From a phage: DNA of 51,374 nucleotides. A program made the translations under genes and the position numbers. The stretch lies in the sequence record NC_105433.1. One strand, written 5' to 3'. The notes under the pieces were generated by a model. The model worked only from the letters and a program-made list of their open reading frames with translations, was not told where the DNA came from and ran no database searches. Positions 19,401 through 34,319 of the stretch are shown here, piece by piece (position 1 is the stretch's first letter; the number at the start of each line of letters is the position of its first letter).

Positions 19401-20060
19401 CAGGCCGTTCAGCAGCTTGACGCTAAGTTCACGAAAGAGATAAACGACCTTGACGGAGTTATCAAAACAGAAGTCGAGGCTAACATCTCAGAAGTGAAAC
19501 AGGCGATCGCCAATGAGACAGAGGCAAGGGTTCAGGCTGACCAGGCTTTAACAGCTAAATTCGGAGATGTTGAATCAGCACTAGCCGAAAAACTTGATTC
19601 GTGGGCTAACGTTGATTCTGTTGGCGCTAAGTACGCTATGAAATTGGGCCTTACTTACAAGGGGCAGAAGTACAGCGCAGGAATGATCATGCAGTTGTCG
19701 CAATCTTCTCAAGGCCTGATCTCGCAAATCTTGTTCGATGCTAACAGGTTCGCGATCATGACTAGCTCTACTGGCGGTACGTTTACATTGCCGTTTGTAG
19801 TAGAAAATAACCAGGTGTTTATCAACAGTTTGTTGGTGAAAAACGGGTCCATTACTAACGCAATGATTGGTAACGTGATTCAGTCAAATAACTTTGTTCA
19901 GAATCAGCAAGGGTGGAGGCTTGATAAAAATGGTAACTTTGAGAACTACGGAACGAGAGCGGGGGAAGGAGCTACAAAATTCACTAACGAAGGCTTAAAG
20001 GTGAAAGATGCAAATGGACGATTGAGGGTTGAGATAGGGAGAATAACCGGAAGTTGGTAA
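16482..20060 (+). CDS. Central tail fibre / host specificity protein (lambda gpJ-like)
   Basis: ORF frame 16431..20060 begins at a TTG; first ATG is at 16482; about 1192 aa; last large gene of the tail module; C-terminal tandem repeats of about 40 aa. Confidence 0.85.
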   Translation: MAKYMISGSKGGSKKPYVPKEMEDNLISINKIKVLLAVSDGECDPNFTLRDLYLDDVPVIASDGTVNYEGVTAEYRPGTQTQDYIQGFTDTSSEVTVSRDITADNPYVISVTNKNLSAIRIKILMPVGMKQEDNGDLVGVRVQYAVDMAVDGGSYNEVMRDVIDGKTRSGYDRSRRIDLPKFDERVLIRVKRLTPDSTSSKVTDKIKLQSYAEVVDAKFRYPLTGLVFVEFDSELFPTQIPNISIKKKWKIINVPSNYDPISREYHGSWDGTFKKAWSNNPAWVLYDLVTNQRYGLDQRELGIQIDKWSLYEAGVYCDQKVPDGKGGTEPRYLCDVVIQNQVEAYQLIRDICSIFRGMSFWNGESLSIVIDKPRDPSYVFTNENVINGDFQYTTASEKSMYTQCNVTFDDEQNMYQQDVEGVFDTEAALRFGYNPTSITAIGCTRRSEANRRGRWVLKTNLRSTTVNFATGLEGMIPSIGDVIAIADNFQSSNLTLNLSGRVMEVSGLQVFVPFKVDARPGDFIIINKPDGKPVKRTISKVSADGKTIELNIGFGFDVKPDTVFAIDRTDLALQQYVVTTISKGDDENEFTYSITAVEYDPNKYDEIDYGVNIDDRPTSIVQPDVMAAPENVQISSYSRVVQGVSVETMVVSWEKVPYASLYEMQWRKGDGNWLNTPQTANKEIEVEGIYSGNYQVRVRSVSASGNTSPWSKIATATLTGKVGEPGAPINLTASDNEVFGIRVKWGMPEGSGDTAYIELHQSPDGTVENSSLLTLIPYPQYEYWHSTLPAGQVVWYRIRSVDRIGNVSGWTDFVRGMASDDVESVLGDILDKIFDTEAGQEIKENAIDSANKIKDQAQSIIQNALANDADVKWTRVQNGKRKAEYGHALELIANETEARVTQIEELKASIDEDIVSSIKTVQEAIANESETRATQVQQLDSKFTKEIDGVKRDTAASIGEVRQTITNESEARAQAVQQLDAKFTKEINDLDGVIKTEVEANISEVKQAIANETEARVQADQALTAKFGDVESALAEKLDSWANVDSVGAKYAMKLGLTYKGQKYSAGMIMQLSQSSQGLISQILFDANRFAIMTSSTGGTFTLPFVVENNQVFINSLLVKNGSITNAMIGNVIQSNNFVQNQQGWRLDKNGNFENYGTRAGEGATKFTNEGLKVKDANGRLRVEIGRITGSW

Positions 20061-20090
20061 AAAAAGGGGGCGTGGCCCCCTTTAATTTTA
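20061..20090. terminator. Bidirectional terminator between convergent J (+) and minus-strand genes
   Basis: gggggc-gtg-gccccc hairpin flanked by an A-run upstream and T-rich sequence downstream. Confidence 0.6.
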
Positions 20091-20702
20091 ATCATAGTGC
20101 GATGAATTTATAACCAAAACAGATGATGCCGTGTAAATACCAACAGGACCAGAAGTTTGCGCAACCTGCCTAGATAAAGAATATACCCCGTTGCCATAAG
20201 CGGCAGCTTGAGACTCAAATATCATGAATCCACCTAAAGACGGATTGGGCACAGAGTTTAAAGCTGTTAGTGATGGCATGATGGCGCAAGGGTATCCCAA
20301 GTTAACGTCAAAAGCGATCCCGCTTACAGATACAAGTTTTGCATCCAAAGGCTTCATCTTTCCATGATAAACCATCTCACCATTAGCATTATAAAAAGCT
20401 ATTCCGTGACTACCAGGAGGAGTAACCATGTTGCTAAAAGCATAAACAAATACCTCGCCTTGATTGTCTGACTTTTCTATCTTTATTGCGTGCTTCCCAC
20501 CATTATTAAACTGAGTAAATGCTATGTATGATTTTGATGTTAATCTTACAAAAAAGAAGCACGGTCTATTTATTGGTATAGAAGTATTAAAAACGGTTCC
20601 TGTTCTTGCTGATATTTTCCCTTTATCTATAAGGTTAACAGGAGTGAAATCTGGACTTAACCACAATGAACCGTCTGGTTTTTTTATGCTCATTCCGTAC
20701 AT
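20088..20702 (-). CDS. Hypothetical protein, third gene of the lipoprotein operon
   Basis: ORF 20088..20714 begins at a TTG; first ATG at 20702 with RBS ggggg; about 204 aa; start overlaps the stop of the upstream gene. Confidence 0.5.
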   Translation of the reverse strand: MYGMSIKKPDGSLWLSPDFTPVNLIDKGKISARTGTVFNTSIPINRPCFFFVRLTSKSYIAFTQFNNGGKHAIKIEKSDNQGEVFVYAFSNMVTPPGSHGIAFYNANGEMVYHGKMKPLDAKLVSVSGIAFDVNLGYPCAIMPSLTALNSVPNPSLGGFMIFESQAAAYGNGVYSLSRQVAQTSGPVGIYTASSVLVINSSHYD

Positions 20703-20704
20703 TA

Positions 20705-20983
20705 TTACCCCCAAAAAGTATATATATATCTTGAGTCAGATCCAGAAAGGCCACTCCATGTAACGGTATCACCACTTACACCCAACTTTGGAGCGCCTGG
20801 ATCGCCTCCTCGCCACGAATTCATTCCAACATATATTGCTTTCAAAGACTTACCTGGAGGCCTGTTTGAGTAGGTCTTACTGCCGGATGATTGAGTAAAT
20901 TTATCCAAGAAAAAAACTGGAGTTAAAAGGCCAGTAACATTTCTACCTTGCTCATCATATATTGCATACCCATATTCAGCCAT
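20705..20983 (-). CDS. Hypothetical protein
   Basis: 92 aa; RBS gaggtg; translationally coupled to its neighbours. Confidence 0.5.
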   Translation of the reverse strand: MAEYGYAIYDEQGRNVTGLLTPVFFLDKFTQSSGSKTYSNRPPGKSLKAIYVGMNSWRGGDPGAPKLGVSGDTVTWSGLSGSDSRYIYTFWG

Positions 20984-21251
20984 TTTTGCACCTCAAATCA
21001 ATGAATTTTCTTTCATCTTGCCAACGGTTGATAAATTTAACTTCTTTATTGTCAACGCTCAACCTGTATTGCTTTTGGCTGAATCTGTTTTCGCGTACCG
21101 CATTAATTTTAACTTCATGGAATCCGTTAACAGGGAATGTTTTAACGTTAAATTTTGCCGTGCAATCGATCTCCTTGAAGTTGCCAGTAGGCGAAGAAGA
21201 ACATCCGGTCAGGGCTGCTACGGTGGCGATAACTGCGATTAATTTTTTCAT
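20976..21251 (-). CDS. Lipoprotein, candidate Cor/Llp-like receptor-blocking superinfection exclusion protein
   Basis: ORF 20976..21257 begins at a TTG; ATG at 21251 with RBS aaggggg; signal peptide with lipobox LTGC; about 91 aa; antisense to and adjacent to the tail genes. Confidence 0.5.
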   Translation of the reverse strand: MKKLIAVIATVAALTGCSSSPTGNFKEIDCTAKFNVKTFPVNGFHEVKINAVRENRFSQKQYRLSVDNKEVKFINRWQDERKFIDLRCKNG

Positions 21252-21283
21252 CTTCAATACCCCCTTAGTTGTTGTTGGCTGTA

Positions 21284-21327
21284 ACTATACACGATCCGGC
21301 AAGCCGAGTTTAGCAAAAAGTGCTACT
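21284..21327 (-). promoter_or_regulatory. Box-type promoter for the lipoprotein operon
   Basis: On the minus strand: gtagcactttttgctaaa, about 21 nt, then tatagt, then RBS and ATG of the lipoprotein gene. Confidence 0.45.
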
Positions 21328-21419
21328 TGTTATTTTTTGTTTTCCGGTGTTATCGGATTTAAGACGGCGTAAATTTAGCGCAAATTTTAGCCAACATAAG
21401 AACAATAAATAATCAATAA

Positions 21420-21615
21420 AATAGGTATATACATATAAAATCAATAGTTTATTTATTTATGTATGTGTATTTGTTTTTTCTTGTTATCTGTGTTTCTTGT
21501 GGTTTTGGTTGTTTGTGGTGATTTTTCTTTCTGAGTATCTGTATGTGCCATCATTCATGTGTATGTATATAATCCGGCGTATCTGAGAGAACAAGGGAAC
21601 AAGAAAAATAACACA
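21420..21615 (+). repeat. Noncoding block A, homologous to block B at 42480..42690
   Basis: Ordered sub-blocks: atttatttat AT-rich run, G/T-rich run (tgtgtttcttgtggttttggttgtttgtggtg), then gtatgtatataatccggcg...aacaagaaaaataaca. Confidence 0.6.
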
Positions 21616-21695
21616 TATTAATCATTAACTTACGCGTAAAATTTGTTTTATTGCCATCTGAGAACGTTTAGAAAACAGAAAAAACAAAACAACTA

Positions 21696-21723
21696 TTGAC
21701 TAAATCAACCAAATGGCTACAAT
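21696..21723 (+). promoter_or_regulatory. Near-consensus sigma70 promoter (TTGACT, 16 nt, TACAAT) for the recombination operon
   Basis: ttgact at about 21696-21701 and tacaat at about 21718-21723; RBS gaggag; ATG at 21754. Confidence 0.65.
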
Positions 21724-21753
21724 GCACACACAAAGCAACGAGGAGCATTAAAG

Positions 21754-22809
21754 ATGAGTGATTTTAACGCCTATACTAGCGAAGAAATGAGCAATGAACT
21801 TTATCATGATCCTAACGCGTGGACGGCTGAATACGTCAGCGGTTCCAGCCTGGCGGAGATTTACAGCACTTGCCCTGCGTACTGGAAGTACAAGCCTCGC
21901 CAGGAAACCAAAGCACTTGTTTTCGGTACGCAGTCGCATACCAATTTTGAAAGCAAGGAGTTATTCGAAAAAACATATCGCCGCGCACCGTCGCAGGATG
22001 ATTTTAAAGATCTGATCACAAGTCAAACGGCGTTGGCCTCAAAGCTGAAATCTTTTGGCCTGAAAGGTACAACTGGTAAGCAATACCCCGAATTGCTGGA
22101 AATGCTGTACAAGTGCGGTGAGGATCTCAATGTATGGTGGCTTATCGAAATGATGGCAGAATGCCAGGCCGCAGCGGACGGCGTGCAGTTAATCGACGCG
22201 AAAGATTATGATGCCTGTGTAGCGATGCGGCGCGTACTTGAGGCAATACCTGAGCATAATGCTTGCATGAATAGCCCAACCGCGCAGCGTGAAATGTCAA
22301 TATTCGGGATCATCAATGGCGTAAAAGTTAAAGTGCGCCTTGATCACGTTGACGTAAACAAGGATGTAAAGGCCACAATCATTAACGGTTACGACGAAAA
22401 AGGCCGACCGATTTATGAAGAAGTCATCTATCCAGAAGCTGTGATTATAACTGACTATAAAACAACGGTTAGCGCAAATCCGGTTGACTTCCAGCGTCTG
22501 GCTTACAATCACGGCTATTATCTCAAAATGGCTTTGCAACATGATTTATTCAAAAAGGCGTATCCAGACGAGGAAAGACCAGTAATTGTGAGATTGCTTG
22601 CTCAAGAGAAGAAAGAGCCTTACTTGCCGCTCGCATTCCGAATGAACATTGAGCAATTGAAGATCGGGCGTATCCAGTACATGAGCGTGATCAACAAGTT
22701 CAACGTTTGCCAACAGTTAGATGAATGGCCTTCGTATGCAAACGGACAACCAGAAATTGATCTTGATACTCCTGATTGGGTTCGCGCTCAATTCAGGCAG
22801 TATCTATAA
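21754..22809 (+). CDS. Recombination exonuclease (PD-(D/E)XK, RecB/Cas4-like, putative)
   Basis: 351 aa; IITDYKTT segment resembling nuclease motif III; first gene of an operon with Erf-like and SSB genes. Confidence 0.6.
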   Translation: MSDFNAYTSEEMSNELYHDPNAWTAEYVSGSSLAEIYSTCPAYWKYKPRQETKALVFGTQSHTNFESKELFEKTYRRAPSQDDFKDLITSQTALASKLKSFGLKGTTGKQYPELLEMLYKCGEDLNVWWLIEMMAECQAAADGVQLIDAKDYDACVAMRRVLEAIPEHNACMNSPTAQREMSIFGIINGVKVKVRLDHVDVNKDVKATIINGYDEKGRPIYEEVIYPEAVIITDYKTTVSANPVDFQRLAYNHGYYLKMALQHDLFKKAYPDEERPVIVRLLAQEKKEPYLPLAFRMNIEQLKIGRIQYMSVINKFNVCQQLDEWPSYANGQPEIDLDTPDWVRAQFRQYL

Positions 22810-22814
22810 CAAAC

Positions 22815-22862
22815 TAAACAAATAGCTAAACTTTTATAATGGTTGGTGATATAATTCGCCAA
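22815..22862 (+). promoter_or_regulatory. Degenerate box plus hairpin-enclosed TATAAT
   Basis: aaatagctaaactttt followed by tataat and a ggttgg...ccaacc stem whose loop contains a second tataat. Confidence 0.3.
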
Positions 22863-22884
22863 CCAGATAACAGGAGAATGAGAA

Positions 22885-23142
22885 ATGACAGACAAAGACA
22901 ATGCCACATTATTGCATTTAGAACGATTCATTGATCGAGTAACCATTGCAATGAAAGAATTTATTAAGCCGATGAACATTAAAGAGTCGGAAGAAATGAA
23001 GACTTACATCAAGGACGTGGTTGCATCCATTGACAACGTTATCCTTGTTGCAACGATGAGCAAGGGAAACAAAGAGCGCGAGAGGTTGGTTACTGAATCA
23101 ACAGAAGAATTTATTAAAATGCTTGAAAGCGAGAAGGAATAA
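22885..23142 (+). CDS. Hypothetical protein
   Basis: 85 aa; RBS caggag; between exonuclease and Erf-like genes. Confidence 0.5.
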   Translation: MTDKDNATLLHLERFIDRVTIAMKEFIKPMNIKESEEMKTYIKDVVASIDNVILVATMSKGNKERERLVTESTEEFIKMLESEKE

Positions 23143-23799
<657 letters not shown>

Positions 23800-23804
23800 T
23801 AAAC

Positions 23805-23826
23805 GGGGCGCTTGCGCCCCTTTTGT
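23805..23826 (+). terminator. Hairpin plus short T-run between the Erf-like and SSB genes
   Basis: ggggcg-cttg-cgcccc followed by ttttgtc. Confidence 0.5.
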
Positions 23827-23842
23827 CATAGGAGAAAACAAA

Positions 23843-24295
23843 ATGCACGTTATTACAGGTGAGATCCGAAAAGAGCCAAAAGTAAAGCAAATGCCTAACG
23901 GCAGCACGCTATATGTTGTTGAGCTTTCCGAGCGATACAAAGACCGAGAGGGAAATTGGCAGTATACAAACTATGTGTTTTTCTTTAACGCGAAAACAGA
24001 CGGCCTGAATGGTTGGTATGCTGAGGCTTTCCAAGTAGGAAAGGTTATTTCTGTTTCCTGCGATACCTTGCGAGTTGAAACGCGAGAATACAACGGAAAG
24101 ATCTACAGCACCGTGCAGCCTGGCGGATTTGCAAACCTGATATTTAGCCAGCGCGGAGAAAGCCAGCAACAATATCAGCAGCGAACGCAAGGAGGCTGGG
24201 GGCAACCACAACAGCAACAGCAACAAAATACTCAACAGCAGCCACAGCAAAGCAATCAGCCGCCAATTGACTTTGACGATGATATACCATTCTAA
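23843..24295 (+). CDS. ssb: Single-stranded DNA-binding protein
   Basis: ORF frame 23792..24295; ATG at 23843 has RBS aggaga; Gln/Pro-rich linker and acidic C-terminal tip DFDDDIPF. Confidence 0.85.
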   Translation: MHVITGEIRKEPKVKQMPNGSTLYVVELSERYKDREGNWQYTNYVFFFNAKTDGLNGWYAEAFQVGKVISVSCDTLRVETREYNGKIYSTVQPGGFANLIFSQRGESQQQYQQRTQGGWGQPQQQQQQNTQQQPQQSNQPPIDFDDDIPF

Positions 24296-24300
24296 TGACA

Positions 24301-24327
24301 AAAAGCCCCGCATATGCGGGGCATTTT
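24301..24327. terminator. Bidirectional terminator between convergent ssb (+) and tail fibre (-)
   Basis: gccccgcatatgcggggc palindrome flanked by aaaa and ttttt. Confidence 0.65.
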
Positions 24328-26630
24328 TATTTGAGATCAACAAGTTTTGCAACCATCGACTTTAATTCGTCAACCTCACTTCTTAGCGATCGCAATTCCT
24401 CCTCCTGCTCTTTGCAAACTTGCAATATGTATGCAGTTACCGCTGAGTAGTCAACTTGTAGAAATCTTTCCTTTCCAATAAGTTCGCTACCGTCTTTTGT
24501 TGGGCCATGCAATTGCTGATAATCCTCAAAAGAACTAATAGCCTCCGGCACAACCTCCATGATCTCTTGAGCTATAACTCCAGCATAAGGCATACCATCT
24601 TTCTTTAACGTGTATGTATACCCACTAACTTTCTCAAGACCTAGCCTTGCATTTTCAATTGGTTTAATGTCAGTTTTCAAATCTCTGTCTGACCCCTGGT
24701 TAAATGCTGTTGCGTTCACAGGTCCGTTAACTTGCAGTTGTCTAGAGTTATTTGAGTTTAACTGAGCATAGAAAACCCACCCAGGTCCGTTATCAAAACC
24801 CCACTCAATAACCGACGCCCTATCAGACCCGTTACCCCATAATTTGAAGGTTGCAGGGTGCGACGAGTTGCCGTCGTTAAGCATTTTGAAATACTTGCCA
24901 CTCGGACGGTCGATCTCTAAACTTGCGGCCTGGACGTATGCTTTGCCTGCAAAGTTCTTTGTACCCATCACAACGCCGTCGGTGATCAACTCAACCTTAG
25001 AAGACGTGAGGTTGTTCAGAAACAGCGCGCTCGTTCCGGTGTCCTTCCCTAAAAACCAAAGACGTGTGCCAGCGGAGTTGTACCCTGTTACGTGCAGTGG
25101 TTGGTTGTTTGTTGACGCTGTTCCGTCGATACGAAAACCGCCATTAGCGGTTGTAACTTTAATGCTTGGTACGGTCATAGCGAATGTGCCACTGGCCGCA
25201 AGGCCGTTATACGCGATCAGCTTGTTGTCATACGCAAGCTCACCATTGTCGCGCATTTGTAGCACTTTCTGCGACGTCCCGTTGCGAATGCCAACATCCG
25301 TGCCGCCTACAAACATTTCGACGATTCGATTACCGCTTTTAGCTCTCACGTAAGCGTTATATTCCGGCGACGACCCCGCGTTATACAGTTCGTACCACTG
25401 CGACCAGGTGTCAGTTGCCCCGTTGCTAATCCAGCGCATCCATTTACGACCGTAACGGTATGAGGTGTACGTTTGTATGCAGCTTTTCGGATTGTTAGCT
25501 CCAGTCCTCTGCACCAACAAACAACCTGCCGTCACGGAAGGGTAGTTTCGCTCAGCAGTGGCGTTTGCAGTCAGTGACTGATAGTAAAAACCAGACTTAT
25601 CACCTTTCAGATCATTAAGGTTCTCAGTTGCCAGTGATTTCTGTCTTTCGTGCATGGCTTGAAGGTTGGCGCGCGCTCCCTGGTCGTTCGATGCTCCTGT
25701 CCCGCCGTCCCCGATCGCCACGTCACCGTTAGCACCCAGCTTCGCCAGTTCAATGGCGCCCACATTTCCAGATGAGCCGTTAATCGCGGCATTGTTTCCA
25801 GCGAAAACCTTCACGCGAGATGTCTGGTAGTCAACGTTAAACGCAAAAAATGTGTCACCAGCCCCGCCGCACACCCCTGGACCATACCTGAACGGCGTCA
25901 TCTCGCCAGAAGGGAACTGCGTAATATCATCGACGCGCCAGAATCCTCCTTTGACAGTATCGCGCAACCGCTTGAGCATATCCCTTACGCCAGTCGGCGC
26001 AGGTAATGTTACACCCGCATACGGCACTCTATTCTGAGCCTCTGAGCTTCCAGCAGCAGCCTCTGCTCGATCAGCCTCTGTTTTAGCCTTGTTTGCACTA
26101 TTTGCGGCATTAGTTTCCGATGTTTTAGCCGCATTCTTACTTGCATTGGCTGCATTTTCAGATGCTTTGGCATTAGTTTCCGATGTTTTAGCGTTTGTTT
26201 CAGAAGTCTTTGCAGCACTAGCGCTTTGTTTTGCTGATTCAGCGCCTTGTTTCACCTGATTTACAAGATCTTTCAACCCATCAAGATCGAAATCTCTAAA
26301 AAATTCAAGCGCGTCAGCGATCTCCGTTTCCTTGCTTTGATAGTAACGCAGTGTTTCCGCTACGTCCTGCGCCAGCCCGTCAACCGTTAACGAGTCATGA
26401 AGCAAGATCAGGTAATTTGTCTTCTGGACTACCGCGCCGCCAGTAGTAATTGCGCGAATGCTTGTATCGCTAATCACTTCTGTAATAACAGCAGCTTGCA
26501 AAGGTTGGGTAAGAAAGAAAATTGTTGCACCTGGGCGAATCAAGGTTAATTGTTCACGCCATTTTGTGTCGTAACCAGTCACATAACCTTGCGCGTCCAT
26601 AGACGCTTGGCCTTGTCTGTAAATCGCCAT
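24327..26630 (-). CDS. Tail fibre protein with C-terminal intramolecular chaperone (peptidase S74-like) domain
   Basis: ORF 24327..26654; ATG at 26630 has RBS taggagg; low-complexity AKTSETNAK repeats; C-terminal [30 protein letters not shown]...GVIAQEI resembles autoproteolytic chaperone domains. Confidence 0.75.
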
Positions 26631-26645
26631 TTGTAAAATCCTCCT

Positions 26646-26666
26646 AAATAGCACTTTTTGCTAATG
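26646..26666 (+). promoter_or_regulatory. Forward-strand box copy antisense to the tail fibre gene, abutting its RBS
   Basis: aaatagcactttttgctaatg on the plus strand; a second partial copy aatagcatttt about 20 nt downstream. Confidence 0.3.
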
Positions 26667-26693
26667 ACAATGCAGATAATAGCATTTTCAAGT

Positions 26694-26719
26694 GTAAAAA
26701 AAAACCCCGCATAAGCGGG
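26694..26719 (-). terminator. Intrinsic terminator after the primase gene (minus strand)
   Basis: Minus strand reads ccccgc-ttat-gcgggg followed by 9 T. Confidence 0.65.
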
Positions 26720-26736
26720 GCAATACTAGCGGAGTT

Positions 26737-27666
26737 TTATAGCAGTGATTCAGGCTTGTAGATTTTTCTTTCTACACCCTGTTTAAAATTATCGTTAACA
26801 GGCATCATTATGTCAAGCCCTCTTTCCTCTGCCGCGATTATCACATCACGATCATCTTTCCGGCAGACTACGCGCATTCTTCTTTCTCCTTTATATCTAT
26901 GCGCAACCATTTCAAGATTTGAAGGAGTAAAACATGCCCACACCTCTTGACCAGTTGATAAATGAACGTGTTGGGAGTCAACCCAATCAAGGCACAAATA
27001 GATCGTCTTATCTGTGCTACCTGTTTTAACAACAGATCCGCGCGTGTAGTCGCGAGCTAAAAACCAATCCTTTCCATCCTCATCAATGAAAAGCACGTTA
27101 CACATTTCATCATCCAGCCCGTCATCATGCACCAGGTGACAAGGTAGCGCGTGAATGTATCGACCATCCTTGACGCCGCAATCATAATGACAATCTTCCG
27201 GCGGATATATCCCCTCATAAACGCTTAATGGTGTGCGATCGAATTTTAATGTTTTTGCCATCACTTTTTCGCAGCATTCATGACTTGCCTGTTTCCCGAA
27301 CGAGTAGCCAGAAGAACGTGAAGCGCGTTTGTTTGCTCTGATCCTGTAATCCTGCGGCACTTTTCCGAGGAAGCGACCCAAAATGTTGATGGCCTCGCTG
27401 TAAGGTTCGCCAGTTAATTTCATTAACCAACCGATCCCCGTGTCGTTACCGCACACGTTGCAGATCGCGCCGCCGTCGCCCTCTTCATTTAGCTTATCAG
27501 TCCATCTAAAACGATCCTTACCGCCGCAGTGTGGGCAAGGCTGATGCTTTTTGTTGAAAACATCGCTATGCAGTCCGCAAATGCTTTGTAGTGCTTCACG
27601 CCATAACCCCTTCATATATGGCAAAACATCTTCTTTCTGATAGGTCATAAAGTTTTCAGTATTCAT
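26737..27666 (-). CDS. DNA primase (zinc-binding plus Toprim-like)
   Basis: ORF 26737..27744; ATG at 27666 has RBS gagg; CPHCGG...CNVCG zinc motif; acidic C-terminal region; adjacent to the helicase. Confidence 0.7.
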   Translation of the reverse strand: MNTENFMTYQKEDVLPYMKGLWREALQSICGLHSDVFNKKHQPCPHCGGKDRFRWTDKLNEEGDGGAICNVCGNDTGIGWLMKLTGEPYSEAINILGRFLGKVPQDYRIRANKRASRSSGYSFGKQASHECCEKVMAKTLKFDRTPLSVYEGIYPPEDCHYDCGVKDGRYIHALPCHLVHDDGLDDEMCNVLFIDEDGKDWFLARDYTRGSVVKTGSTDKTIYLCLDWVDSQHVHLSTGQEVWACFTPSNLEMVAHRYKGERRMRVVCRKDDRDVIIAAEERGLDIMMPVNDNFKQGVERKIYKPESLL

Positions 27667-27674
27667 GGCAAACC

Positions 27675-27715
27675 TCAATAAAAAAGCCCAGCAAATATTA
27701 TCATTTCGCTGGGCC
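27675..27715 (-). terminator. Hairpin plus T-run between the HTH gene and primase
   Basis: Minus strand: ggcccagcgaaatgataatatttgctgggc followed by ttttttatt. Confidence 0.5.
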
Positions 27716-27721
27716 TTATCA

Positions 27722-28198
27722 TTAGCTATTCGTGCTGTTATCACCTTTGTAGAATCTTCCGCCTGGTTCGTAGTCTGAATTTTTGACTACGCGCAACATT
27801 TCGTATTTGTCGCAACGGGTAGTAAGAGGCTTGCCGTTAGAATCAAACCGCAGATCTGGACGACAAAACGAGGCGCGGTATCCTTTGCATCCATTATATT
27901 TGTAGTCGTTATGCACCTTTTGTGCTCCAGCGGCTGAAATCATACCACGCTTTCGCCACTGGTTAACGACTTGCTGAGATACGCGCAGACGTCGAGCCAT
28001 AGCAGGAACACCGCCGTAATACTCGATCAGAATGTCAAGGCGAGATTTCAGGCTTGCTTTTACCTCATCTCGCAGGATAAGAAATCCGGTTCGGTGTTTT
28101 CGTGGCTTTTTGTCTTTACCTCGTCGCGTTCCGTTGTTACCGTTAATAGTGCGCTTGTCGATCTCACCCGTAGATACTGCAATTCGTGCATCTTTCAT
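27722..28198 (-). CDS. Putative DNA-binding protein (HTH) with Cys-rich C-terminal half
   Basis: 158 aa; basic N-terminus; HTH-like VPAMARRLRVSQQVVNQWRKRG; first gene of the leftward operon. Confidence 0.5.
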   Translation of the reverse strand: MKDARIAVSTGEIDKRTINGNNGTRRGKDKKPRKHRTGFLILRDEVKASLKSRLDILIEYYGGVPAMARRLRVSQQVVNQWRKRGMISAAGAQKVHNDYKYNGCKGYRASFCRPDLRFDSNGKPLTTRCDKYEMLRVVKNSDYEPGGRFYKGDNSTNS

Positions 28199-28209
28199 CT
28201 AGTCACCTC

Positions 28210-28253
28210 ATAGCATTTTTTGTTAAAACAGTTTATTGTAATGAGTCTATTAT
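28210..28253 (+). promoter_or_regulatory. Box-type promoter upstream of the helicase
   Basis: atagcattttttgttaaaac, 22-nt spacer, then tattat; ATG at 28286. Confidence 0.45.
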
Positions 28254-28285
28254 ATACTCCAAATGGCATTTTTTAAAGGTTTAAG

Positions 28286-30283
28286 ATGATTCCAAATATC
28301 GAAAAACAAATATCAGCGTTAGGCGAGGCAGTAATAAAAAGCATCCAAGAGCGATTCACGGTTGGCAATATAGTGCCTTATCCTTATCAGTGCGTTGCGT
28401 ATGCCGAGATCGCAAAGCGCATGAAAAACTATGAGCATCCTTTCTTTGTTAAGGCTTCTGTGTCGGCTGGTAAAACATTGATGTTTGCGATGGTTGCGGC
28501 GCAATGCCGCAAGATGGGATTGAAAATGATGGTCCTTGCTCGCCAGGCTGAAATTGTTGATCAGGATTCAGAAGAGATCAGCAATCTTGGCGTGCCAAAC
28601 TCAATCTATTGCGCCGGACTGAAAACAAAAAGCGCATACTTTCCGATCGTAGTCGGTTCTGAGGGCACTGTAGTAAACGGATTGTTTAAGTCGTTAGGTG
28701 ATTATGTTCCGCACGTTATCGGTATTGATGAATGTCACCAGGTGGATTGGGAGGATCTCGCCGACGCGATAGAAAATAATGAATCTTACCAGCAGATGAC
28801 CACTAAGAAGGATTTGCCTGTACTGATTGGAGAAGAACAGCAATTTGATTCCAATGGCGATCCAATGTTCGGAACAGGGCGCACACAGTACACCGTAATA
28901 ATCATGGAAATGATGCGCAGGTGTCGCGAGTCATACGGGCACGAATTGCGAATATTCGGTATGACTGGATCTGAGTTTCGCGGCGTGGTTCCAATACTGG
29001 TTGAAGATAAGAACAAAAAGGGATTCTGGCGTGAGCAGGTGACTAACATAGACACAAACTACTTAATCAAATTCGGTTCGGTAGTGCCAACAAATTTCGG
29101 CGACGTAGGCGACCTGGGGTATGACCTTTCAGAGTTCGAAGCCAGTAGCGAGGATGGCGTTTCAGACTTTGACGCTAAAACATTGCGCAAGATGGAAGAA
29201 AAAATCCATCAAGACGCAACAATGACACAGAAAATCATGGCTAAAGTCCATGAGATATGCAAAGACAGGAACGGAGTTTTAGTTACATGCGCAGGGGAAA
29301 GGCACTGCAAGGAGGCCGCCGCCGCACTGCCCCCAGGCGTTGAATACAGGATCATAACTGGCAAGACTGGAGATAATCAGCGTAAAGAGTGGCTGAGGGA
29401 GGCATACGAGGGAAAAGTAAAATACATCTTCCAGGTACAGGCGCTTACCACTGGCGTTAACGTTCCGTTTTGGGATACTTCGGTAATACTGAGAAAGATA
29501 GGATCTCTAACATTGCTCATCCAGCTTTTGGGGCGCGGTATGCGACTGCTTAAGCAATGGCACATTGAGAAGGGATTCAAGAAAAAAGATCATCTTGTAT
29601 TGGATTTTGCAGGTACTATGGATGAGTTAGGGGATTTGTATTTCGATCCAATCCTTGAGCAAGCGCAATTCCAAAAGAGATTTACAAACGGTAAAGAGCC
29701 TAAGACTTGTCCGATATGTGGAACGCTAAACAGTTTTTACGCTCGCCGATGTATGCACGTAGACGATAACGGGAAACGATGTGAGCATTTTTGGACTTAC
29801 AGAATTTGCGAGGACCAGGTAGATCCGAGAACGAAAAAGATAATCAAGCGCGGTTGCGGAACAAAAAACGACGTAGTGGCGAGAGTTTGCCGTTGTTGCG
29901 ATATTTCTCTTGTCGATCCTAACGAGAAGTTAAGCGGCAAGCACTACACCAAAAACGATTGGTGCAACGTTAAATCTTTCCGCGTTGATATGACGAAAAA
30001 CCAAAAAGGAATTGTTTTTTGCTATGAGCTTGAGGCCAACGGCGACACGTTCAAGGCATACGAAAGATTTTTCCCTGAGTCAGAAAGCAACATTTGCCGG
30101 ACGATATGGAGAAAAATAGCATTGCAGCACATACCGGATCGCAAGATTGCTGGTATGGTGGCGAGCTATAGAAATGCGCGTAAAATAATGTCATACGCTC
30201 ATCACATCATGCCTCCTGTACGCGTAACGCATCGCAAAAACGGCAAAGGTGAGGATAACATTGCAAAACGGGAGTTTGTTTAA
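28286..30283 (+). CDS. DNA helicase (SF2, DExH) with C-terminal zinc ribbon
   Basis: 665 aa; Walker A SAGKT; DECH box (IGIDECHQVD); C-terminal CxxC...C cluster. Confidence 0.8.
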   Translation: MIPNIEKQISALGEAVIKSIQERFTVGNIVPYPYQCVAYAEIAKRMKNYEHPFFVKASVSAGKTLMFAMVAAQCRKMGLKMMVLARQAEIVDQDSEEISNLGVPNSIYCAGLKTKSAYFPIVVGSEGTVVNGLFKSLGDYVPHVIGIDECHQVDWEDLADAIENNESYQQMTTKKDLPVLIGEEQQFDSNGDPMFGTGRTQYTVIIMEMMRRCRESYGHELRIFGMTGSEFRGVVPILVEDKNKKGFWREQVTNIDTNYLIKFGSVVPTNFGDVGDLGYDLSEFEASSEDGVSDFDAKTLRKMEEKIHQDATMTQKIMAKVHEICKDRNGVLVTCAGERHCKEAAAALPPGVEYRIITGKTGDNQRKEWLREAYEGKVKYIFQVQALTTGVNVPFWDTSVILRKIGSLTLLIQLLGRGMRLLKQWHIEKGFKKKDHLVLDFAGTMDELGDLYFDPILEQAQFQKRFTNGKEPKTCPICGTLNSFYARRCMHVDDNGKRCEHFWTYRICEDQVDPRTKKIIKRGCGTKNDVVARVCRCCDISLVDPNEKLSGKHYTKNDWCNVKSFRVDMTKNQKGIVFCYELEANGDTFKAYERFFPESESNICRTIWRKIALQHIPDRKIAGMVASYRNARKIMSYAHHIMPPVRVTHRKNGKGEDNIAKREFV

Positions 30284-30702
30284 TGGCTATAACTGATAAA
30301 GGCGATTATCTTGAGTTTTACGAAAGGGATCCAACCGACACGAGAAGGGAAGTTAATCACCAGATAGATAGTTTTCAGTGGTTGAGTTATGCTCATCCTT
30401 ATTTGCTGGCGTGGCATACGGTAAACGAGAATGAGAAGTCTAAAGCAACGGCGATGATTGATCAGCAGTCCGGCTTGGTTAAGGGAGTAAGCGATTTCAT
30501 CATCCTGATTGGTTTAAACGGAAAATACCCCTTTGCAGCTATTGAGATCAAACGAGTGAATAAATCAGGCAAGGGGAAAGCATCACCAGTCAGCGATGAA
30601 CAAAAGGCTTTTTTGCGTCGCGTTCGCAGCTTAGGAGGATTCGCTGCGGTAGCCTACGGATTCAATCAGTTTAAGTTGGCTATTGAATACATGCTTAAAT
30701 AG
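30283..30702 (+). CDS. VRR-NUC-type nuclease (putative)
   Basis: 139 aa; ATGA overlap with the helicase; ...SDFIILIGLNG...AIEIKR segment resembles the PD-(D/E)XK core; by recollection only. Confidence 0.45.
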   Translation: MAITDKGDYLEFYERDPTDTRREVNHQIDSFQWLSYAHPYLLAWHTVNENEKSKATAMIDQQSGLVKGVSDFIILIGLNGKYPFAAIEIKRVNKSGKGKASPVSDEQKAFLRRVRSLGGFAAVAYGFNQFKLAIEYMLK

Positions 30703-30742
30703 CACTTTTTGTTAAAACTGGCGCGATGGATTGCGCCATAAT
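30698..30742 (+). promoter_or_regulatory. Box-type promoter cassette (box, hairpin, CATAAT)
   Basis: aatagcactttttgttaaaac overlapping the upstream TAG stop; hairpin ggcgc-gatggatt-gcgcc; cataat 22 nt after ttgtta. Confidence 0.5.
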
Positions 30743-30782
30743 TCAATAACACGAGATGGCTTTTAATAGCGGAGAAATGAAA

Positions 30783-31508
30783 ATGGCTAAAGATATTTTA
30801 GATAAAGACACCCATGACGCATTCGTTAGCTTTGAGCAGTTGGAGAGAGAAACGTTTATAGGGAATGCCCTTGCAACTGGAGGCCATTACCAGGCAGTAA
30901 AGCCAAATCAATATTATAAGGTAAGCGGAAACCGATACGCTGGAAGCACTACGCCGGACGTTGTGCGAGATATGTGGAGCACGCCTCAAGAGATCGTGGA
31001 GTGGATGGAATCAGAATTTGGTGAATACGATCTCGACGCGGCAGCAAGCCAGGAAAACGCAGTTTGCGAGAAGTTCTATAGCAAGGAGACAAACTGCTTA
31101 AAGCGTTGGTGGGGTAGAAACAAGCACGTATGGCTTAACCCGCCGTACAGCAACCCAACTCCATTTATCAAGAAAGCAATTGAGCAAATGGAGCACAACA
31201 ACCAAATTGATGTTTTGTTGCCAGCAGACAACTCTACAGCATGGTTTTATGAGGCGCAGAAAAACGCGGCTGAAATTATCTGGATCACTGGCGAGGTTTA
31301 CGAAGAGGGTGGAGTAGAATACTCCCGCACCGGAAGAATTGCCTTTGTGTCTGGATTGACTGGTGAGCCTGTGCAGGGCAACAACAAGGGAAGCGTGATT
31401 TTTGTCATGCGCAAACTTAAAGAAGGCGAGGAGCAGAAAACGCGATACGTTAAGATCAGCGATATTTGCCCTTCTGTAACCGAACGTCGCGCACGCAAAC
31501 GGAGCTAA
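30783..31508 (+). CDS. dam: DNA N6-adenine methyltransferase (Dam-like)
   Basis: ORF frame 30756..31508; ATG at 30783 has RBS ggag; NPPY catalytic motif (WLNPPYSN). Confidence 0.75.
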   Translation: MAKDILDKDTHDAFVSFEQLERETFIGNALATGGHYQAVKPNQYYKVSGNRYAGSTTPDVVRDMWSTPQEIVEWMESEFGEYDLDAAASQENAVCEKFYSKETNCLKRWWGRNKHVWLNPPYSNPTPFIKKAIEQMEHNNQIDVLLPADNSTAWFYEAQKNAAEIIWITGEVYEEGGVEYSRTGRIAFVSGLTGEPVQGNNKGSVIFVMRKLKEGEEQKTRYVKISDICPSVTERRARKRS

Positions 31509-31512
31509 AACG

Positions 31513-31770
31513 ATGGAAAAAGAGAGAAGCGTTTATTTAAATGAAACTGGTGAGTGGTTGTTATTTCGCGCTATGGTGTGCGATGCACTTGATAAAAACC
31601 CTAACGTGAAAAAGATGATTGATTGCGATCCGTGGGAATTTTCAAGCGCATTAGATATGAGCTTTGAGGAGACAAGAAAACTCCCTCTTGAAAAATGGCA
31701 CGAACAAATCAGAAATGACATGCAAGAGTTTGTCGATTCGTGGAATTTTCAGCACGGAATGATCCACTAA
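31513..31770 (+). CDS. Hypothetical protein
   Basis: 85 aa; stop embedded in the following box copy. Confidence 0.5.
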   Translation: MEKERSVYLNETGEWLLFRAMVCDALDKNPNVKKMIDCDPWEFSSALDMSFEETRKLPLEKWHEQIRNDMQEFVDSWNFQHGMIH

Positions 31771-31813
31771 TAGCACTTTTTGTTAAAACGCCCGGCCTAG
31801 TGTCGGGCATAAT
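31769..31813 (+). promoter_or_regulatory. Box-type promoter cassette (box, hairpin, CATAAT)
   Basis: aatagcactttttgttaaaac; hairpin gcccg-gcctagtgt-cgggc; cataat at about 31808-31813. Confidence 0.5.
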
Positions 31814-31845
31814 TATTTCAACGAAGCAAACATGAGGAAATAAAA

Positions 31846-32025
31846 ATGGTGGTATTCGATAAACGCGCTTTTAACCTTGCTCAAGAAGTAGCAAAAGGTT
31901 CAGTGGATGGCGGTTCAAAGGAAGGATTCCAGTTTGATTGGGAGATCGCAATGTTTTTACTGAAAGTTGCATACGGTCACGCGCCAATTGAACAAGCGGA
32001 GGCATATTATAAGCATGAAGGTTGA
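31846..32025 (+). CDS. Small hypothetical protein (59 aa), absent from the ORF track
   Basis: ATG at 31846 with RBS gagg; reads MVVFDKRAFNLAQEVAKGS... to a TGA at 32023-32025. Confidence 0.4.
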   Translation: MVVFDKRAFNLAQEVAKGSVDGGSKEGFQFDWEIAMFLLKVAYGHAPIEQAEAYYKHEG

Positions 32026-32257
32026 GCAAGGTAGAGATGCGGTATGGAATCACGCTAAAGAATGCGGAATAGCCGACGATATAAAGAAGATCGCGCAATA
32101 CTTTGATATTGCAGATGTGAGCATAATTAGCGGCGACAAGATGACTTTCCTCAAGGAAAGGCCGCGAAAAATGGTAAGAGTTCCAGCAGTTCCAACAAAA
32201 ATTGATTTCAAAGAGGCAATGGCTAAAATCCGAGAGCCTCGCAAATATTATAAATGA
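32015..32257 (+). CDS. Hypothetical protein
   Basis: Frame of ORF 31967..32257; internal ATG at 32015 preceded by ggagg, overlapping the end of the small ORF. Confidence 0.4.
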   Translation: MKVEQGRDAVWNHAKECGIADDIKKIAQYFDIADVSIISGDKMTFLKERPRKMVRVPAVPTKIDFKEAMAKIREPRKYYK

Positions 32258-32351
32258 GGATAGTTATCATGTGGCGCTTGTTTGTTCTACCGTTACCCGT
32301 TATCATCGCTGTTACAGTTATGTACCATATAGTGATGAGATAGGTAGCAGA

Positions 32352-33467: not shown

Positions 33468-33513
33468 TGAATTTTTATTTAAATCAATGACAAATTAAAT
33501 CAAAAACTTGCAA

Positions 33514-33543
33514 AGGGGCGGCGTTTGTCGCCTCTTTTTTTTG
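33514..33543 (+). terminator. Intrinsic terminator
   Basis: aggggcg-gcgtttgt-cgcctct followed by tttttttt. Confidence 0.55.
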
Positions 33544-33612
33544 TTTAATTTTTTACCATGTGCGTTTATCATGCGGTCAATATATTGACTTTAATTAATA
33601 TGGAGAATAAAA

Positions 33613-33828
33613 ATGAAAGATTTTATTAACGCAGCTACCGCCGGATCTGGCGGTTCATCTATCGCAAGCGCCGCTACAGGGCAGTTAACCATTGCTATTG
33701 CCAGTTTTATTTTAATGGCTGCATTCGGTGCGTGGGGCGCTTACCTTCGCTGGCGTGATAGTAAAAAATTCCACGAGGCGATCGAAAAAGGTGATATTCA
33801 AAAAGCTATTGAGATCAGGGGCAAGTAA
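33613..33828 (+). CDS. Holin (pinholin-like, putative)
   Basis: 71 aa; weakly hydrophobic Gly/Ala/Ser-rich first segment and strong second transmembrane segment; charged C-terminus; directly upstream of the endolysin. Confidence 0.6.
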
Positions 33829-34319
33829 TGAGCATAAAGAACAGGGTAGCGGCTGCGGCCTTTGGCGTTGCGGTTGCCTTGACTTCTCCACTTCTTGAAG
33901 AGATCGAAGGGGTAAGATACAAGCCATACAAAGATATTGCGGGGGTATGGACGGTTTGCGCAGGAATCACCGGACCAGATGTTATCCTGGGGAAAACGTA
34001 CACTAAAAAAGAGTGTGATGCTTTGTTGGCTAAACATATCCAGGTTGCTAAAAAAGAAGTTGACAAGCAGGTTAAGGTTGACATTCCTGATAGTATGCGT
34101 GCAGCAATGTACTCATTCACTTATAATGCAGGCGTGGGAGCTTTCAGAAATTCAACAATGCTGAAACTCATCAACCAGGGGAAATTAAAAGATGCTTGCG
34201 ATCAGCTTTATCGTTGGACGTATTACCATAACCCCAAAACAGGAAGGCGCGAGAAGTCTAAAGGCTTACTTAACAGGCGCAAGGTCGAATACAAATATTG
34301 CACAATGGATCTGAAATGA
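33828..34319 (+). CDS. SAR endolysin (lysozyme, glycoside hydrolase 24-like)
   Basis: 163 aa; N-terminal Ala/Gly-rich signal-anchor-release-like segment; catalytic-triad-like spacing E(GVRY)...D(IAG)...T(VCAG). Confidence 0.75.

What the first reader, a model, noticed from the sequence alone, without database searches (positions are those of the whole stretch)
24327..26630. Tail fibre gene displaced into the replication module, with S74-like chaperone domain
The 767-aa fibre gene is on the minus strand in an operon with the HTH protein and primase, 4 kb from the tail cluster, so its expression may be early or middle. It has low-complexity AKTSETNAK-type repeats (DNA repeats around 26100-26200) and a C-terminal domain resembling intramolecular chaperone/auto-cleaving domains of endosialidase-type fibres.
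Basis: partly seen in the sequence, partly recalled or inferred. Interest (0 to 1): 0.45.

Follow-up and report, generated by a model that had tools for sequence, protein, structure and literature searches.

The report
Ordinary T1-family lateral tail fibre gene
This is the normal side tail fibre gene of a T1-like coliphage. It sits where every phage of this family keeps it, carries a well-known self-cleaving folding domain, and appears to have its own promoter and terminators, so it is ordinary rather than displaced.

Summary
The window is the complete genome of Escherichia phage vB_EcoD_Poky (Drexlerviridae, 97.7% identical to Warwickvirus tonijn over 14000-34000). The 767-aa minus-strand gene at 24327-26630 exists exactly as described and is already deposited as "putative tail fiber".

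- **S74 domain, confirmed three ways.** Pfam PF13884 scores 44.7 bits. PDB sequence searches hit S16 gp37, MyRF and phi29 gp12. A fold search returns only MyRF ICA and the K1F intramolecular chaperone as top hits. Ser647 is invariant and Lys652 is conserved in at least 90% of homologues. Predicted products are a 69-kDa mature fibre and a 14-kDa released chaperone.
- **Position.** The "displacement" is not an event in this phage. The order ssb | fibre (opposite strand) | primase | HTH regulator | helicase is the same in T1, tonijn and JLBYU26, in 28 metagenomic relatives, and in the BASEL description of the family.
- **Mosaicism.** Only the centre of the gene (aa 142-617) has been swapped. It has 51.5% GC and is shared with Dhillonvirus.
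- **Operon claim, not supported.** A conserved intrinsic terminator and a conserved extended -10 promoter lie between primase and fibre, and a bidirectional terminator follows the fibre gene. It therefore looks like a monocistronic unit. Its timing cannot be read from sequence.
- **By-product.** I found a family-wide 15-nt palindromic box, with one copy in the fibre leader.

The parts
24327..26630 (-). Lateral tail fibre CDS, 767 aa plus stop (83.0 kDa precursor)
   Evidence: ORF and translation; SD and ATG; PHROG tail-fibre families; identical to the deposited Poky 'putative tail fiber'
26253..26630 (-). N-terminal virion-anchor domain, aa 1-126, the only part conserved across Drexlerviridae
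   Evidence: 92% identical to tonijn and 47.5% to T1 ST26; E=2e-61 to residues 1-174 of 7LZJ/7VYV; 1352 phage records match, mostly over aa 1-127 only; BASEL S1C Fig
26022..26252 (-). Alanine/serine-rich heptad region, aa 127-203: ten K-x-S-E-x-N-A heptads (aa 127-196), a predicted trimeric helical bundle.
   Evidence: [quoted passage not shown]
24693..26021 (-). Central and distal beta-rich shaft and presumed receptor-binding region, aa 204-646. Its core (aa 142-617, nt 24780-26207) is a horizontally exchanged cassette.
   Evidence: No nucleotide match to tonijn between 24776 and 26205, with 96.7% and 88.6% identity in the flanks; GC 51.5% vs 44.9% for the genome; ~84% nt identity to Dhillonvirus fibres; AF2 model is mostly beta, pLDDT 80-90 for aa 210-420 and 570-640
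24330..24692 (-). Peptidase_S74 / intramolecular chaperone domain, aa 647-767 (13.7 kDa). Predicted autocleavage between Gly646 and Ser647. Ser647 codon is 24690-24692 and Lys652 codon is 24675-24677.
   Evidence: Pfam PF13884 44.7 bits; PDB phmmer hits 6F45, 7DC3 and 3GUD, with the 3GUD chain starting at the aligned Ser; Foldseek top 7 hits are 7DC3 and 3GW6; Ser invariant and Lys >=90% conserved; S[DE]xxxK in 117/120 homologues
26640..26645 (-). Shine-Dalgarno AGGAGG, 9 nt before the ATG
   Evidence: Read directly
26649..26663 (-). Palindromic box TAGCA-AAAAG-TGCTA in the fibre 5' leader, centred about +14 of the predicted transcript. It is a member of a genome-wide Drexlerviridae box family, here without the usual fixed-distance -10.
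   Evidence: conserved in T1 and most relatives at -32 to -36 from the ATG
26676..26684 (-). Predicted extended -10 promoter element TGCTATTAT for the fibre gene
   Evidence: TGnTAnnAT present at -45 to -54 in 28 of 31 distinct upstream regions; invariant columns in the alignment
26696..26721 (-). Intrinsic terminator ending the HTH-primase unit: GCCCCGC-TTAT-GCGGGG plus T9
   Evidence: Relatives carry different GC-rich hairpins but always a T-run at the same place, -10.7 to -19.2 kcal/mol
24305..24322 (.). Bidirectional intrinsic terminator shared by the fibre gene (-) and the convergent recE-erf-ssb genes (+). It starts 4 nt after the fibre stop, so no separate chaperone gene follows.
   Evidence: T1 has annotated terminators on both strands at the equivalent site
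26737..27744 (-). DNA primase gene (upstream neighbour; the true start is probably internal, near 27666)
   Evidence: Pfam Zn_Ribbon_Prim and phrog_510; tonijn annotation gives 309 aa
27722..28198 (-). HTH (Cro/YdaS-like) transcriptional regulator gene, first gene of the leftward unit
   Evidence: phrog_2856 E=1.6e-72; sub-threshold Pfam YdaS/P22_Cro hits

Best explanation
The gene encodes the lateral (side) tail fibre of a T1-like siphovirus.

**Protein architecture.**
- aa 1-126 dock the trimer onto the tail tip.
- aa 127-203 form a heptad-repeat helical bundle.
- aa 204-646 form the beta-rich shaft and distal tip. By analogy with T5 and other small siphoviruses, this part reversibly binds a surface glycan such as O-antigen.
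- aa 647-767 are an S74-type intramolecular chaperone. It templates trimer folding and then cuts itself off at Gly646|Ser647 using the Ser647/Lys652 dyad. This leaves a 69-kDa mature fibre and makes a separate tfa-type chaperone gene unnecessary.

**Position and exchange.** The location between the recombination genes and the primase, on the opposite strand to the tail operon, is the ancestral layout of the Drexlerviridae. The conserved 5' anchor-coding and 3' S74-coding ends act as homology arms between which the receptor-binding cassette is exchanged. In Poky the cassette is a Dhillonvirus-type one.

**Transcription.** The gene is most likely its own monocistronic unit. It is insulated from the primase by an intrinsic terminator, driven by an extended -10 sigma-70 promoter, and closed by a bidirectional terminator.

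**Shown versus inferred.** Shown here: homology, domain borders, catalytic residues, synteny, mosaic breakpoints, and conservation of the terminator and the -10. Inferred: actual cleavage, receptor, promoter activity and timing.
For: - **Identity and annotation:**
- **Fibre nature:**
- **S74 domain:** Pfam; PDB sequence hits, including the cleaved phi29 gp12 chain that begins at the aligned Ser; fold hits 7DC3 and 3GW6; Ser647 invariant and Lys652 >=90% in 67 sequences; motif in 117/120 homologues.
- **Synteny:** T1, tonijn, JLBYU26, 28 metagenomic loci with primase immediately upstream, BASEL text and S1C Fig. In the T1-like phage Sfin-1, the orthologous gene next to primase carries pfam13884 and was detected by LC-MS/MS in purified phage.
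- **Mosaicism:**
- **Separate transcription unit:** terminator and promoter. The stop codon lies 4 nt from the bidirectional terminator.
Against: - No experimental data exist for Poky, so cleavage, virion incorporation and promoter activity are all unmeasured.
- The -35 region of the predicted promoter is only the terminator's T-tract in Poky. T1 has a better TTGCAA with a 17-nt spacer.
- Intrinsic terminators also sit between co-oriented structural genes in this genome, so terminators here may be leaky or antiterminated. Some read-through from the primase unit cannot be excluded.
- The Sfin-1 proteome also contained non-structural proteins such as primase and helicase, so it is weak evidence for virion association.
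- The T1 cryo-EM map showed no lateral-fibre density.
- The AF2 models have only moderate confidence (pLDDT 73 and 69).
Confidence: 0.85

Rival explanations
1. One reading: the fibre gene is the distal gene of the HTH-primase operon. It would be transcribed by read-through from the promoter in front of the HTH gene, so the fibre is made early or middle together with the replication proteins.
For: The fibre gene has the same orientation as the primase and lies only 106 nt downstream of it. A good sigma-70-like promoter lies upstream of the HTH gene (TTTAAA-17-TATAAT, 28277-28249). Intrinsic terminators also occur between co-oriented structural genes that must all be expressed, so terminators in this phage may be partial.
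Against: The terminator between primase and fibre is canonical and strong (7-bp GC stem, T9). Its presence, though not its sequence, is conserved in every relative with primase upstream. A conserved extended -10 follows it in 28/31 distinct upstream regions, including phages where no primase is upstream (L032-L034). T1 additionally has an annotated terminator between the regulator and primase genes.
Confidence: 0.2
2. The protein is an enzymatic tailspike (a glycan depolymerase or esterase) rather than a purely binding fibre, as at the same locus in Klebsiella Webervirus phages.
For: The N-terminal 174 aa are homologous to the depolymerases 7LZJ/7VYV/7VZ3. S74 domains were first described on endosialidases. 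Foldseek gives weak hits to the Acinetobacter AS12 tailspike (118 columns, 24% identity) and to endosialidase NF.
Against: No Pfam catalytic or beta-helix domain is found apart from S74. Homology to the depolymerases stops at residue 174. The remaining sequence hits are to fibres: R-type pyocin fibre (E~0.04-0.06), T4 gp34 and S16 gp37. The endosialidase structural hits have probability <=0.2 and rmsd >35 A.
Confidence: 0.12
3. The fibre gene was recently moved or inverted in this particular phage, so its position would be a genuine lineage-specific rearrangement.
For: The central 1.4 kb is foreign relative to the nearest genome, tonijn, and has atypical GC.
Against: The recombination breakpoints lie inside the gene. 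Both ends and both flanks are collinear with tonijn at 89-97% identity. The gene order is identical in T1 and across the family.
Confidence: 0.02

Closest known systems
Lateral tail fibre locus of Drexlerviridae (T1 ST26/gp26; BASEL phages Bas01-13; tonijn gp23; JLBYU26 gp83)
   Same: [quoted passage not shown] Terminators flank it on both sides.
   Different: Poky's central cassette is a Dhillonvirus-type module that is absent from tonijn and T1. T1's own fibre has a different C-terminus in which I saw no SDxxxK motif.
C-terminal intramolecular chaperone domains (Peptidase S74): K1F endosialidase CIMCD (3GW6), S16 gp37 (6F45), phi29 gp12 (3GUD), MyRF ICA (7DC3). T5 pb1 is cited from my own knowledge.
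   Same: It sits at the C-terminus of a trimeric fibre. The Ser-x4-Lys dyad lies at the domain's N-terminal border. The beta-rich part is followed by a long C-terminal helix (aa 728-765 in the model). It matches the Pfam HMM and the fold.
   Different: It is only ~17-24% identical to the solved examples. Cleavage has not been demonstrated for this protein or, as far as I found, for any Drexlerviridae fibre.
Klebsiella Webervirus depolymerase Depo32 (7LZJ) and relatives (7VYV, 7VZ3)
   Same: Residues 1-174 (anchor plus heptad helical bundle) are homologous at E=2e-61, and the gene occupies the same locus in a T1-like genome.
   Different: Depo32 continues into a catalytic beta-helix, a CBM and a small C-terminal domain. 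Poky continues into a fibre-like beta region and an S74 chaperone.
Dhillonvirus lateral tail fibres (e.g. Gluttony_ev152 gp58, 803 aa)
   Same: The central and C-terminal ~77-83% of the protein is 74-82% identical and ~84% identical at the nucleotide level.
   Different: The N-terminal anchor differs. The gene lies just beyond gpJ and the two small RBP/exclusion genes, not beside a primase. No palindromic box is found in that locus.

Membership tests
Peptidase S74 / intramolecular chaperone auto-processing domain | Match to the family HMM (PF13884) above the curated threshold | tested here: met
   44.7 bits against a cut-off of 22, E=1.6e-11, aa 647-697. PF13884 is precomputed for all 120 listed homologues.
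Peptidase S74 / intramolecular chaperone auto-processing domain | Catalytic Ser at the cleavage site with Lys five residues downstream (Ser-Lys dyad) | tested here: met
   S647-D-R-D-L-K652. Ser is invariant and Lys >=90% conserved in 67 sequences. The motif is present in 117/120 homologues. Ser647 aligns with residue 1 of the cleaved phi29 gp12 chain 3GUD and with the SDRRIK of S16 gp37.
Peptidase S74 / intramolecular chaperone auto-processing domain | Fold of the CIMCD (beta-rich part plus a long C-terminal helix forming a trimeric bundle) | tested here: met
   Foldseek of the aa 620-767 model gives 7DC3 (prob 1.00, TM 0.49/0.52) and six 3GW6 chains (prob 0.89-0.97) as the only meaningful hits. 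The model is a monomer with pLDDT 69, so this is supportive rather than precise.
Peptidase S74 / intramolecular chaperone auto-processing domain | Autoproteolytic release of the domain after trimerisation | not testable with these tools
   This needs SDS-PAGE or MS of expressed protein or virions. The prediction is 69.3 kDa plus 13.7 kDa.
Drexlerviridae lateral tail fibre | Homologous N-terminal anchor domain | tested here: met
   92% identical to tonijn and 47.5% to T1 ST26 over aa 1-193. Hundreds of Drexlerviridae records match aa 1-127.
Drexlerviridae lateral tail fibre | Syntenic position between the recombination/ssb genes and the primase, antiparallel to the tail operon | tested here: met
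   and BASEL S1C Fig.
Drexlerviridae lateral tail fibre | Physical presence on the virion and a role in primary (glycan) receptor binding | not testable with these tools
   Only indirect literature is available. The Sfin-1 orthologue was detected by LC-MS/MS. BASEL states that the role 'has never been directly demonstrated'. No fibre density was seen in the T1 cryo-EM map.
   An intrinsic terminator at 26721-26696 and an extended -10 at 26684-26676 lie between them, and both are conserved in relatives. The test is by sequence only; read-through was not measured.

The most novel reading that the evidence does not exclude
The 15-nt palindrome TAGCA-N5-TG(C/T)TA may be the operator of a Drexlerviridae-specific transcription factor, possibly the conserved Cro-like HTH protein encoded two genes upstream of the fibre.

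At about 16 early or middle promoters the box spans roughly -49 to -35, at a fixed 22 nt from the -10, which is a class-II-activator-like position. In front of the fibre, major capsid and portal/terminase genes it instead lies without that -10, in the transcribed leader or next to the SD.

If one protein activates the first set and blocks the second, this would be the missing early-to-late switch of T1-like phages. It would also explain how a fibre gene embedded among replication genes is still expressed with the structural genes.
Probability: 0.25. Interest if true: 0.5.

Novelty: already known. Interest (0 to 1): 0.15.

Why it matters
As stated, the finding changes little. The gene is already annotated as a tail fibre, the S74 domain is a routine Pfam call on such fibres, and the locus position has been documented since the T1 genome (2004) and the BASEL collection (2021).

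Its practical value is for host-range engineering. The anchor-coding and S74-coding ends delimit a swappable receptor-binding cassette (aa ~142-617) that moves between Drexlerviridae and Dhillonvirus.

The more interesting result is a by-product. T1-like phages appear to be organised as many small terminator-promoter units marked by a family-specific palindromic box, and temporal control in this classic phage family is still unexplained.

Tried and rejected
- **Fold search of the 568-aa model (aa 200-767) against the PDB.** It returned only weak, long-rmsd hits to assorted phage fibre and spike chains, so it says nothing about the receptor-binding tip.
- **Literature on T1-family gene timing or transcriptomes.** The one paper combining Drexlerviridae and RNA-seq had sequenced a T5-like phage. 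The search for promoter and terminator motifs found nothing relevant. A search for the printed box sequence found only an unrelated mouse paper.
- **Known RNA elements.** Rfam and tRNA scans of the whole window found no known RNA element in the fibre leader or elsewhere.
- **The GTG at 26654 as the start codon.** Rejected because it has no SD, and all homologues begin MA(I/L)YR.
- **The 147-aa minus-strand ORF 23909-24352 as a downstream fibre chaperone.** Rejected because it has no family hits and lies antisense to a well-supported ssb gene.
- **The fibre-leader box as an antisense (+ strand) promoter.** Rejected because no -10-like hexamer lies 21-23 nt downstream of it in Poky or T1, unlike 16/19 and 14/18 of the other boxes.
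- **The simple promoter scan.** It flagged TTGACA-17-GATAAT at 26816-26788 inside the primase 3' end. That site lies upstream of the terminator, so it is unlikely to serve the fibre.
Full report
**What the window is.** The fibre protein is 100% identical to 'putative tail fiber [Escherichia phage vB_EcoD_Poky]' on a contig of exactly 51374 bp. Positions 14000-34000 are 97.7% identical to Escherichia phage tonijn (Drexlerviridae; Tempevirinae; Warwickvirus) over 91% of their length. Poky is one of 22 T1-like phages announced in PMC9119101. The window is therefore a complete, published T1-like genome.

**Checking the observation.**
- The minus-strand ORF 24327-26654 is open.
- The ATG at 26630 is preceded by AGGAGG with a 9-nt spacer, and the upstream GTG has no SD. 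All homologues start MA(I/L)YR. The 767-aa call is therefore correct.
- Tandem Repeats Finder reports 21-nt-period arrays at 26114-26212. In protein terms these are part of ten consecutive heptads K-x-S-E-x-N-A, aa 127-196.
- The gpJ-like gene ends at 20060, so the fibre lies 4.3 kb away.
- The neighbours are a primase (Zn_Ribbon_Prim, phrog_510) and an HTH regulator (phrog_2856) on the same strand. A recE/erf/ssb block converges from the other side.

**What the protein is.**
- *Family matches.* Thirty-six PHROG families match the protein; the 25 listed are all tail fibre or other tail proteins apart from one of unknown function.
- *Residues 1-174.* They match Klebsiella siphophage depolymerases 7LZJ, 7VYV and 7VZ3 at E~2e-61. 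[quoted passage not shown]
- *Other phages.* Of the 1352 phage records that match the protein, most match only aa 1-127. [quoted passage not shown]
- *Central region.* It has no Pfam domain. It gives weak sequence hits to R-type pyocin fibres and weak structural hits to T4 gp34, a phi812 baseplate chain and an Acinetobacter tailspike fragment. The AF2 monomer model is mostly beta and has moderate confidence.
- I treat the protein as a binding fibre rather than an enzyme, but that is not proven.

**The S74 domain.** Three independent lines agree.
- Pfam Peptidase_S74 scores 44.7 bits against a cut-off of 22, at aa 647-697.
- A phmmer search of the last 137 aa against the PDB finds S16 gp37 (6F45, E=6e-6), the MyRF ICA domain (7DC3, E=1e-4) and, weakly, phi29 gp12 (3GUD). 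The crystallised, already-cleaved 3GUD chain begins with the Ser that aligns to Ser647.
- An AF2 model of aa 620-767 (pLDDT 69) searched with Foldseek returns 7DC3 (prob 1.00) and six chains of 3GW6 'Intramolecular Chaperone' (prob 0.89-0.97) as the top seven hits. Nothing else falls below E~0.9.

The catalytic motif is S647-DRDL-K652. Ser is invariant and Lys is at least 90% conserved in a 67-sequence alignment. S[DE]xxxK occurs at the equivalent place in 117 of 120 homologues. Predicted products are 69.3 kDa (aa 1-646) and 13.7 kDa (aa 647-767). Actual cleavage is inferred, not shown.

**Is the gene displaced?** Only in comparison with lambda or Dhillonvirus.
- In Dhillonvirus Gluttony_ev152 the homologous fibre lies just beyond gpJ and two small genes.
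- Within Drexlerviridae the order ssb -> | <- fibre | <- primase | <- regulator | helicase -> is universal. It holds in T1 (ST27 / ST26 / ST24 / ST23 / ST22), tonijn (gp22-26) and JLBYU26 (gp82-86).
- Among 34 IMG/VR loci recovered with the anchor domain, 28 have a primase homologue (58-99% identical) ending about 100 nt upstream of the fibre start.
- The T1-like phage Sfin-1 was annotated in 2019 with pfam13884 on the fibre gene next to primase. The protein appeared in an LC-MS/MS analysis of purified phage, although non-structural proteins appeared too.

The position and the domain are therefore both already documented.

**Mosaic structure.**
- Against tonijn, nucleotide identity is 96.7% from 26206 upward (fibre aa 1-141, primase and beyond). 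It is 88.6% from 24775 downward (fibre aa ~618-767, ssb and beyond). There is no nucleotide match in between.
- The replaced core (aa 142-617) has 51.5% GC, against 46.1% and 40.7% for the two ends and 44.9% for the genome.
- That core is ~84% identical at the nucleotide level to Dhillonvirus fibres. It is 74-82% identical at the protein level to many 803-808-aa proteins, most of them on ~45-kb or shorter contigs.
- The anchor-coding and S74-coding ends thus behave as homology arms for cassette exchange across phage groups.

**Operon or separate unit?**
- *Terminator.* Between the primase stop (26737) and the fibre ATG lies GCCCCGCTTATGCGGGG followed by nine T on the fibre strand (26721-26696).
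- *Terminator conservation.* In relatives the hairpin sequence differs (ACCCCGC/GCGGGGT, GGCCCCGC.../...GCGGGGCT, GGCCCGGTAC.../...GTATCGGGCC, ACCGCC/GGCGGT, ACCCGC/GCGGGT). A GC-rich hairpin plus T-run is nevertheless always present, at -10.7 to -19.2 kcal/mol. This is the signature of selection for a terminator.
- *Promoter.* Downstream of the terminator, an alignment of nine diverse upstream regions has invariant columns spelling AATG-TA--AT, which is an extended -10. The variants are TGCTATTAT, TGCTAGAAT, TGCTAAAAT and TGATAAAAT.
- *Promoter conservation.* TGnTAnnAT occurs 45-54 nt before the ATG in 28 of 31 distinct upstream sequences. These include three from phages with no primase upstream. 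T1 also has TTGCAA at a 17-nt spacing, whereas in Poky the -35 position falls in the terminator's T-tract.
- *Downstream end.* The fibre stop is followed after 4 nt by a bidirectional terminator (24305-24322) shared with the convergent ssb gene. The gene is therefore monocistronic and has no tfa-like partner, as expected for a fibre with an intramolecular chaperone.
- *Caveat.* Intrinsic terminators are also frequent between co-oriented structural genes, so read-through or antitermination may be part of this phage's biology.

Timing cannot be decided from sequence, and I found no transcriptome for this family.

**A by-product: the palindromic box.** The conserved leader sequence GTGCTATTTA led me to a 15-nt palindromic box, TAGCA-N5-TG(C/T)TA.
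- *Abundance.* The box occurs 19 times in the window against 0.22 expected (maximum 2 in 200 shuffles) and 18 times in T1. It is absent from the non-Drexlerviridae loci fetched.
- *Canonical copies.* In 16 of 19 copies (14 of 18 in T1) a -10-like hexamer lies 21-23 nt after the box, and in 14 of the 16 window copies the distance is exactly 22 nt. The background frequency is 6.3%. All but one of these (the copy at 10533) precede non-structural genes: helicase, Dam methylase, and the small early genes on both arms. The box then spans about -49 to -35.
- *Copies without that -10.* In Poky these lie in front of the portal gene (2152), the major capsid gene (6779) and the fibre gene (26649). In T1 they lie at 105, terS (8363), the major capsid gene (15071) and the fibre gene (34903).
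- *Leader copies.* The copy before the tail-chaperone gene (10533; T1 18835) and the copy before the HTH gene (28211; T1 36445) lie in the leader directly before the SD, as at the fibre. Their -10-like hexamer is on the opposite strand, and for the HTH copy it belongs to the divergent helicase promoter.

The fibre's box therefore groups with those of structural genes, which hints at co-regulation with the late genes. Because the HTH gene shares the leader arrangement, the pattern does not by itself assign a temporal class. What binds the box is unknown, and the conserved HTH protein is only an obvious candidate.

**Verdict.** The 'displacement' is a long-known family trait, the gene and its domain are already annotated, and the operon and early-expression inference is not supported by the sequence. 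Interest is low for the finding as stated. The box family is the only item here that may merit separate follow-up.

Noticed in passing
window 2152, 6779, 10533, 21311, 26649, 28211, 30700, 31771, 35015, 37851, 40377, 40883, 42187, 43539, 44002, 45220, 46695, 48014, 49308 (15-mer starts); near-copy at about 37177-37191 (the 10-mer match is at 37186): The palindromic box (a)aaTAGCAC-TTTTT-G(T/C)TAaaac occurs 19 times against 0.22 expected, and 18 times in T1. It is absent from the Dhillonvirus and other non-Drexlerviridae loci fetched. In 16 of 19 copies a -10-like hexamer lies 21-22 nt downstream (background 6%), which defines a family-specific promoter class for non-structural genes. The TAG inside the box is often the stop codon of the preceding gene. 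The copies lacking that -10 lie before the portal, major capsid and fibre genes.
   Followed up: partly
window 2182-2203, 5922-5943, 6800-6821, 7824-7844, 10467-10485, 11196-11213, 14275-14296, 16410-16426: Strong intrinsic terminator hairpins lie between almost every pair of structural-gene blocks on the + strand, as annotated in T1. Some are followed by a -10-like element and an inverted box, for example terminator-ctgTAAAAT-box-SD before the gene at 10563, which is conserved in T1. This suggests the late region is a chain of small units or depends on antitermination.
   Followed up: partly
window 28199-28285: This is the divergent control region between the HTH regulator gene (-) and the helicase gene (+). 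A single box at 28211-28225 lies 22 nt upstream of the helicase -10 (TATTAT) and at the same time in the leader of the HTH gene, downstream of its TTTAAA-17-TATAAT promoter. That geometry would suit autoregulation. It is conserved in T1 (36445).
   Followed up: no
window 24780-26207: The exchanged core of the fibre gene has 51.5% GC against 44.9% for the genome. It is ~84% identical at the nucleotide level to Dhillonvirus fibre genes, which is evidence of recent cassette transfer between two phage groups.
   Followed up: yes
phage collection hits H1, H11 (MG065636.1, MG065637.1) and others: Dozens of records named 'Campylobacter phage' with host C. jejuni are ~50-kb T1-like genomes closely matching this E. 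coli phage region (86.9% nt over the fibre gene). The host assignment looks doubtful; contamination or mislabelling seems likely.
   Followed up: no
window 26737-27744 vs 27722-28198: The mechanical primase ORF (335 aa, GTG start) overlaps the HTH gene by 23 nt. Relatives annotate a 309-aa primase starting about 54 nt after the regulator gene, so the true start is probably internal. T1 has an annotated terminator between the two genes, but the scan found none here.
   Followed up: no
window 20088-21372: Downstream of gpJ lie minus-strand genes for a 'membrane associated protein' (phrog_425) and a small 'outer membrane protein', driven by a canonical box promoter at 21311 (-). This is the RBP/superinfection-exclusion locus described by BASEL, and here it is inverted relative to T1, where ST32 and ST31 are on the + strand.
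   Followed up: no
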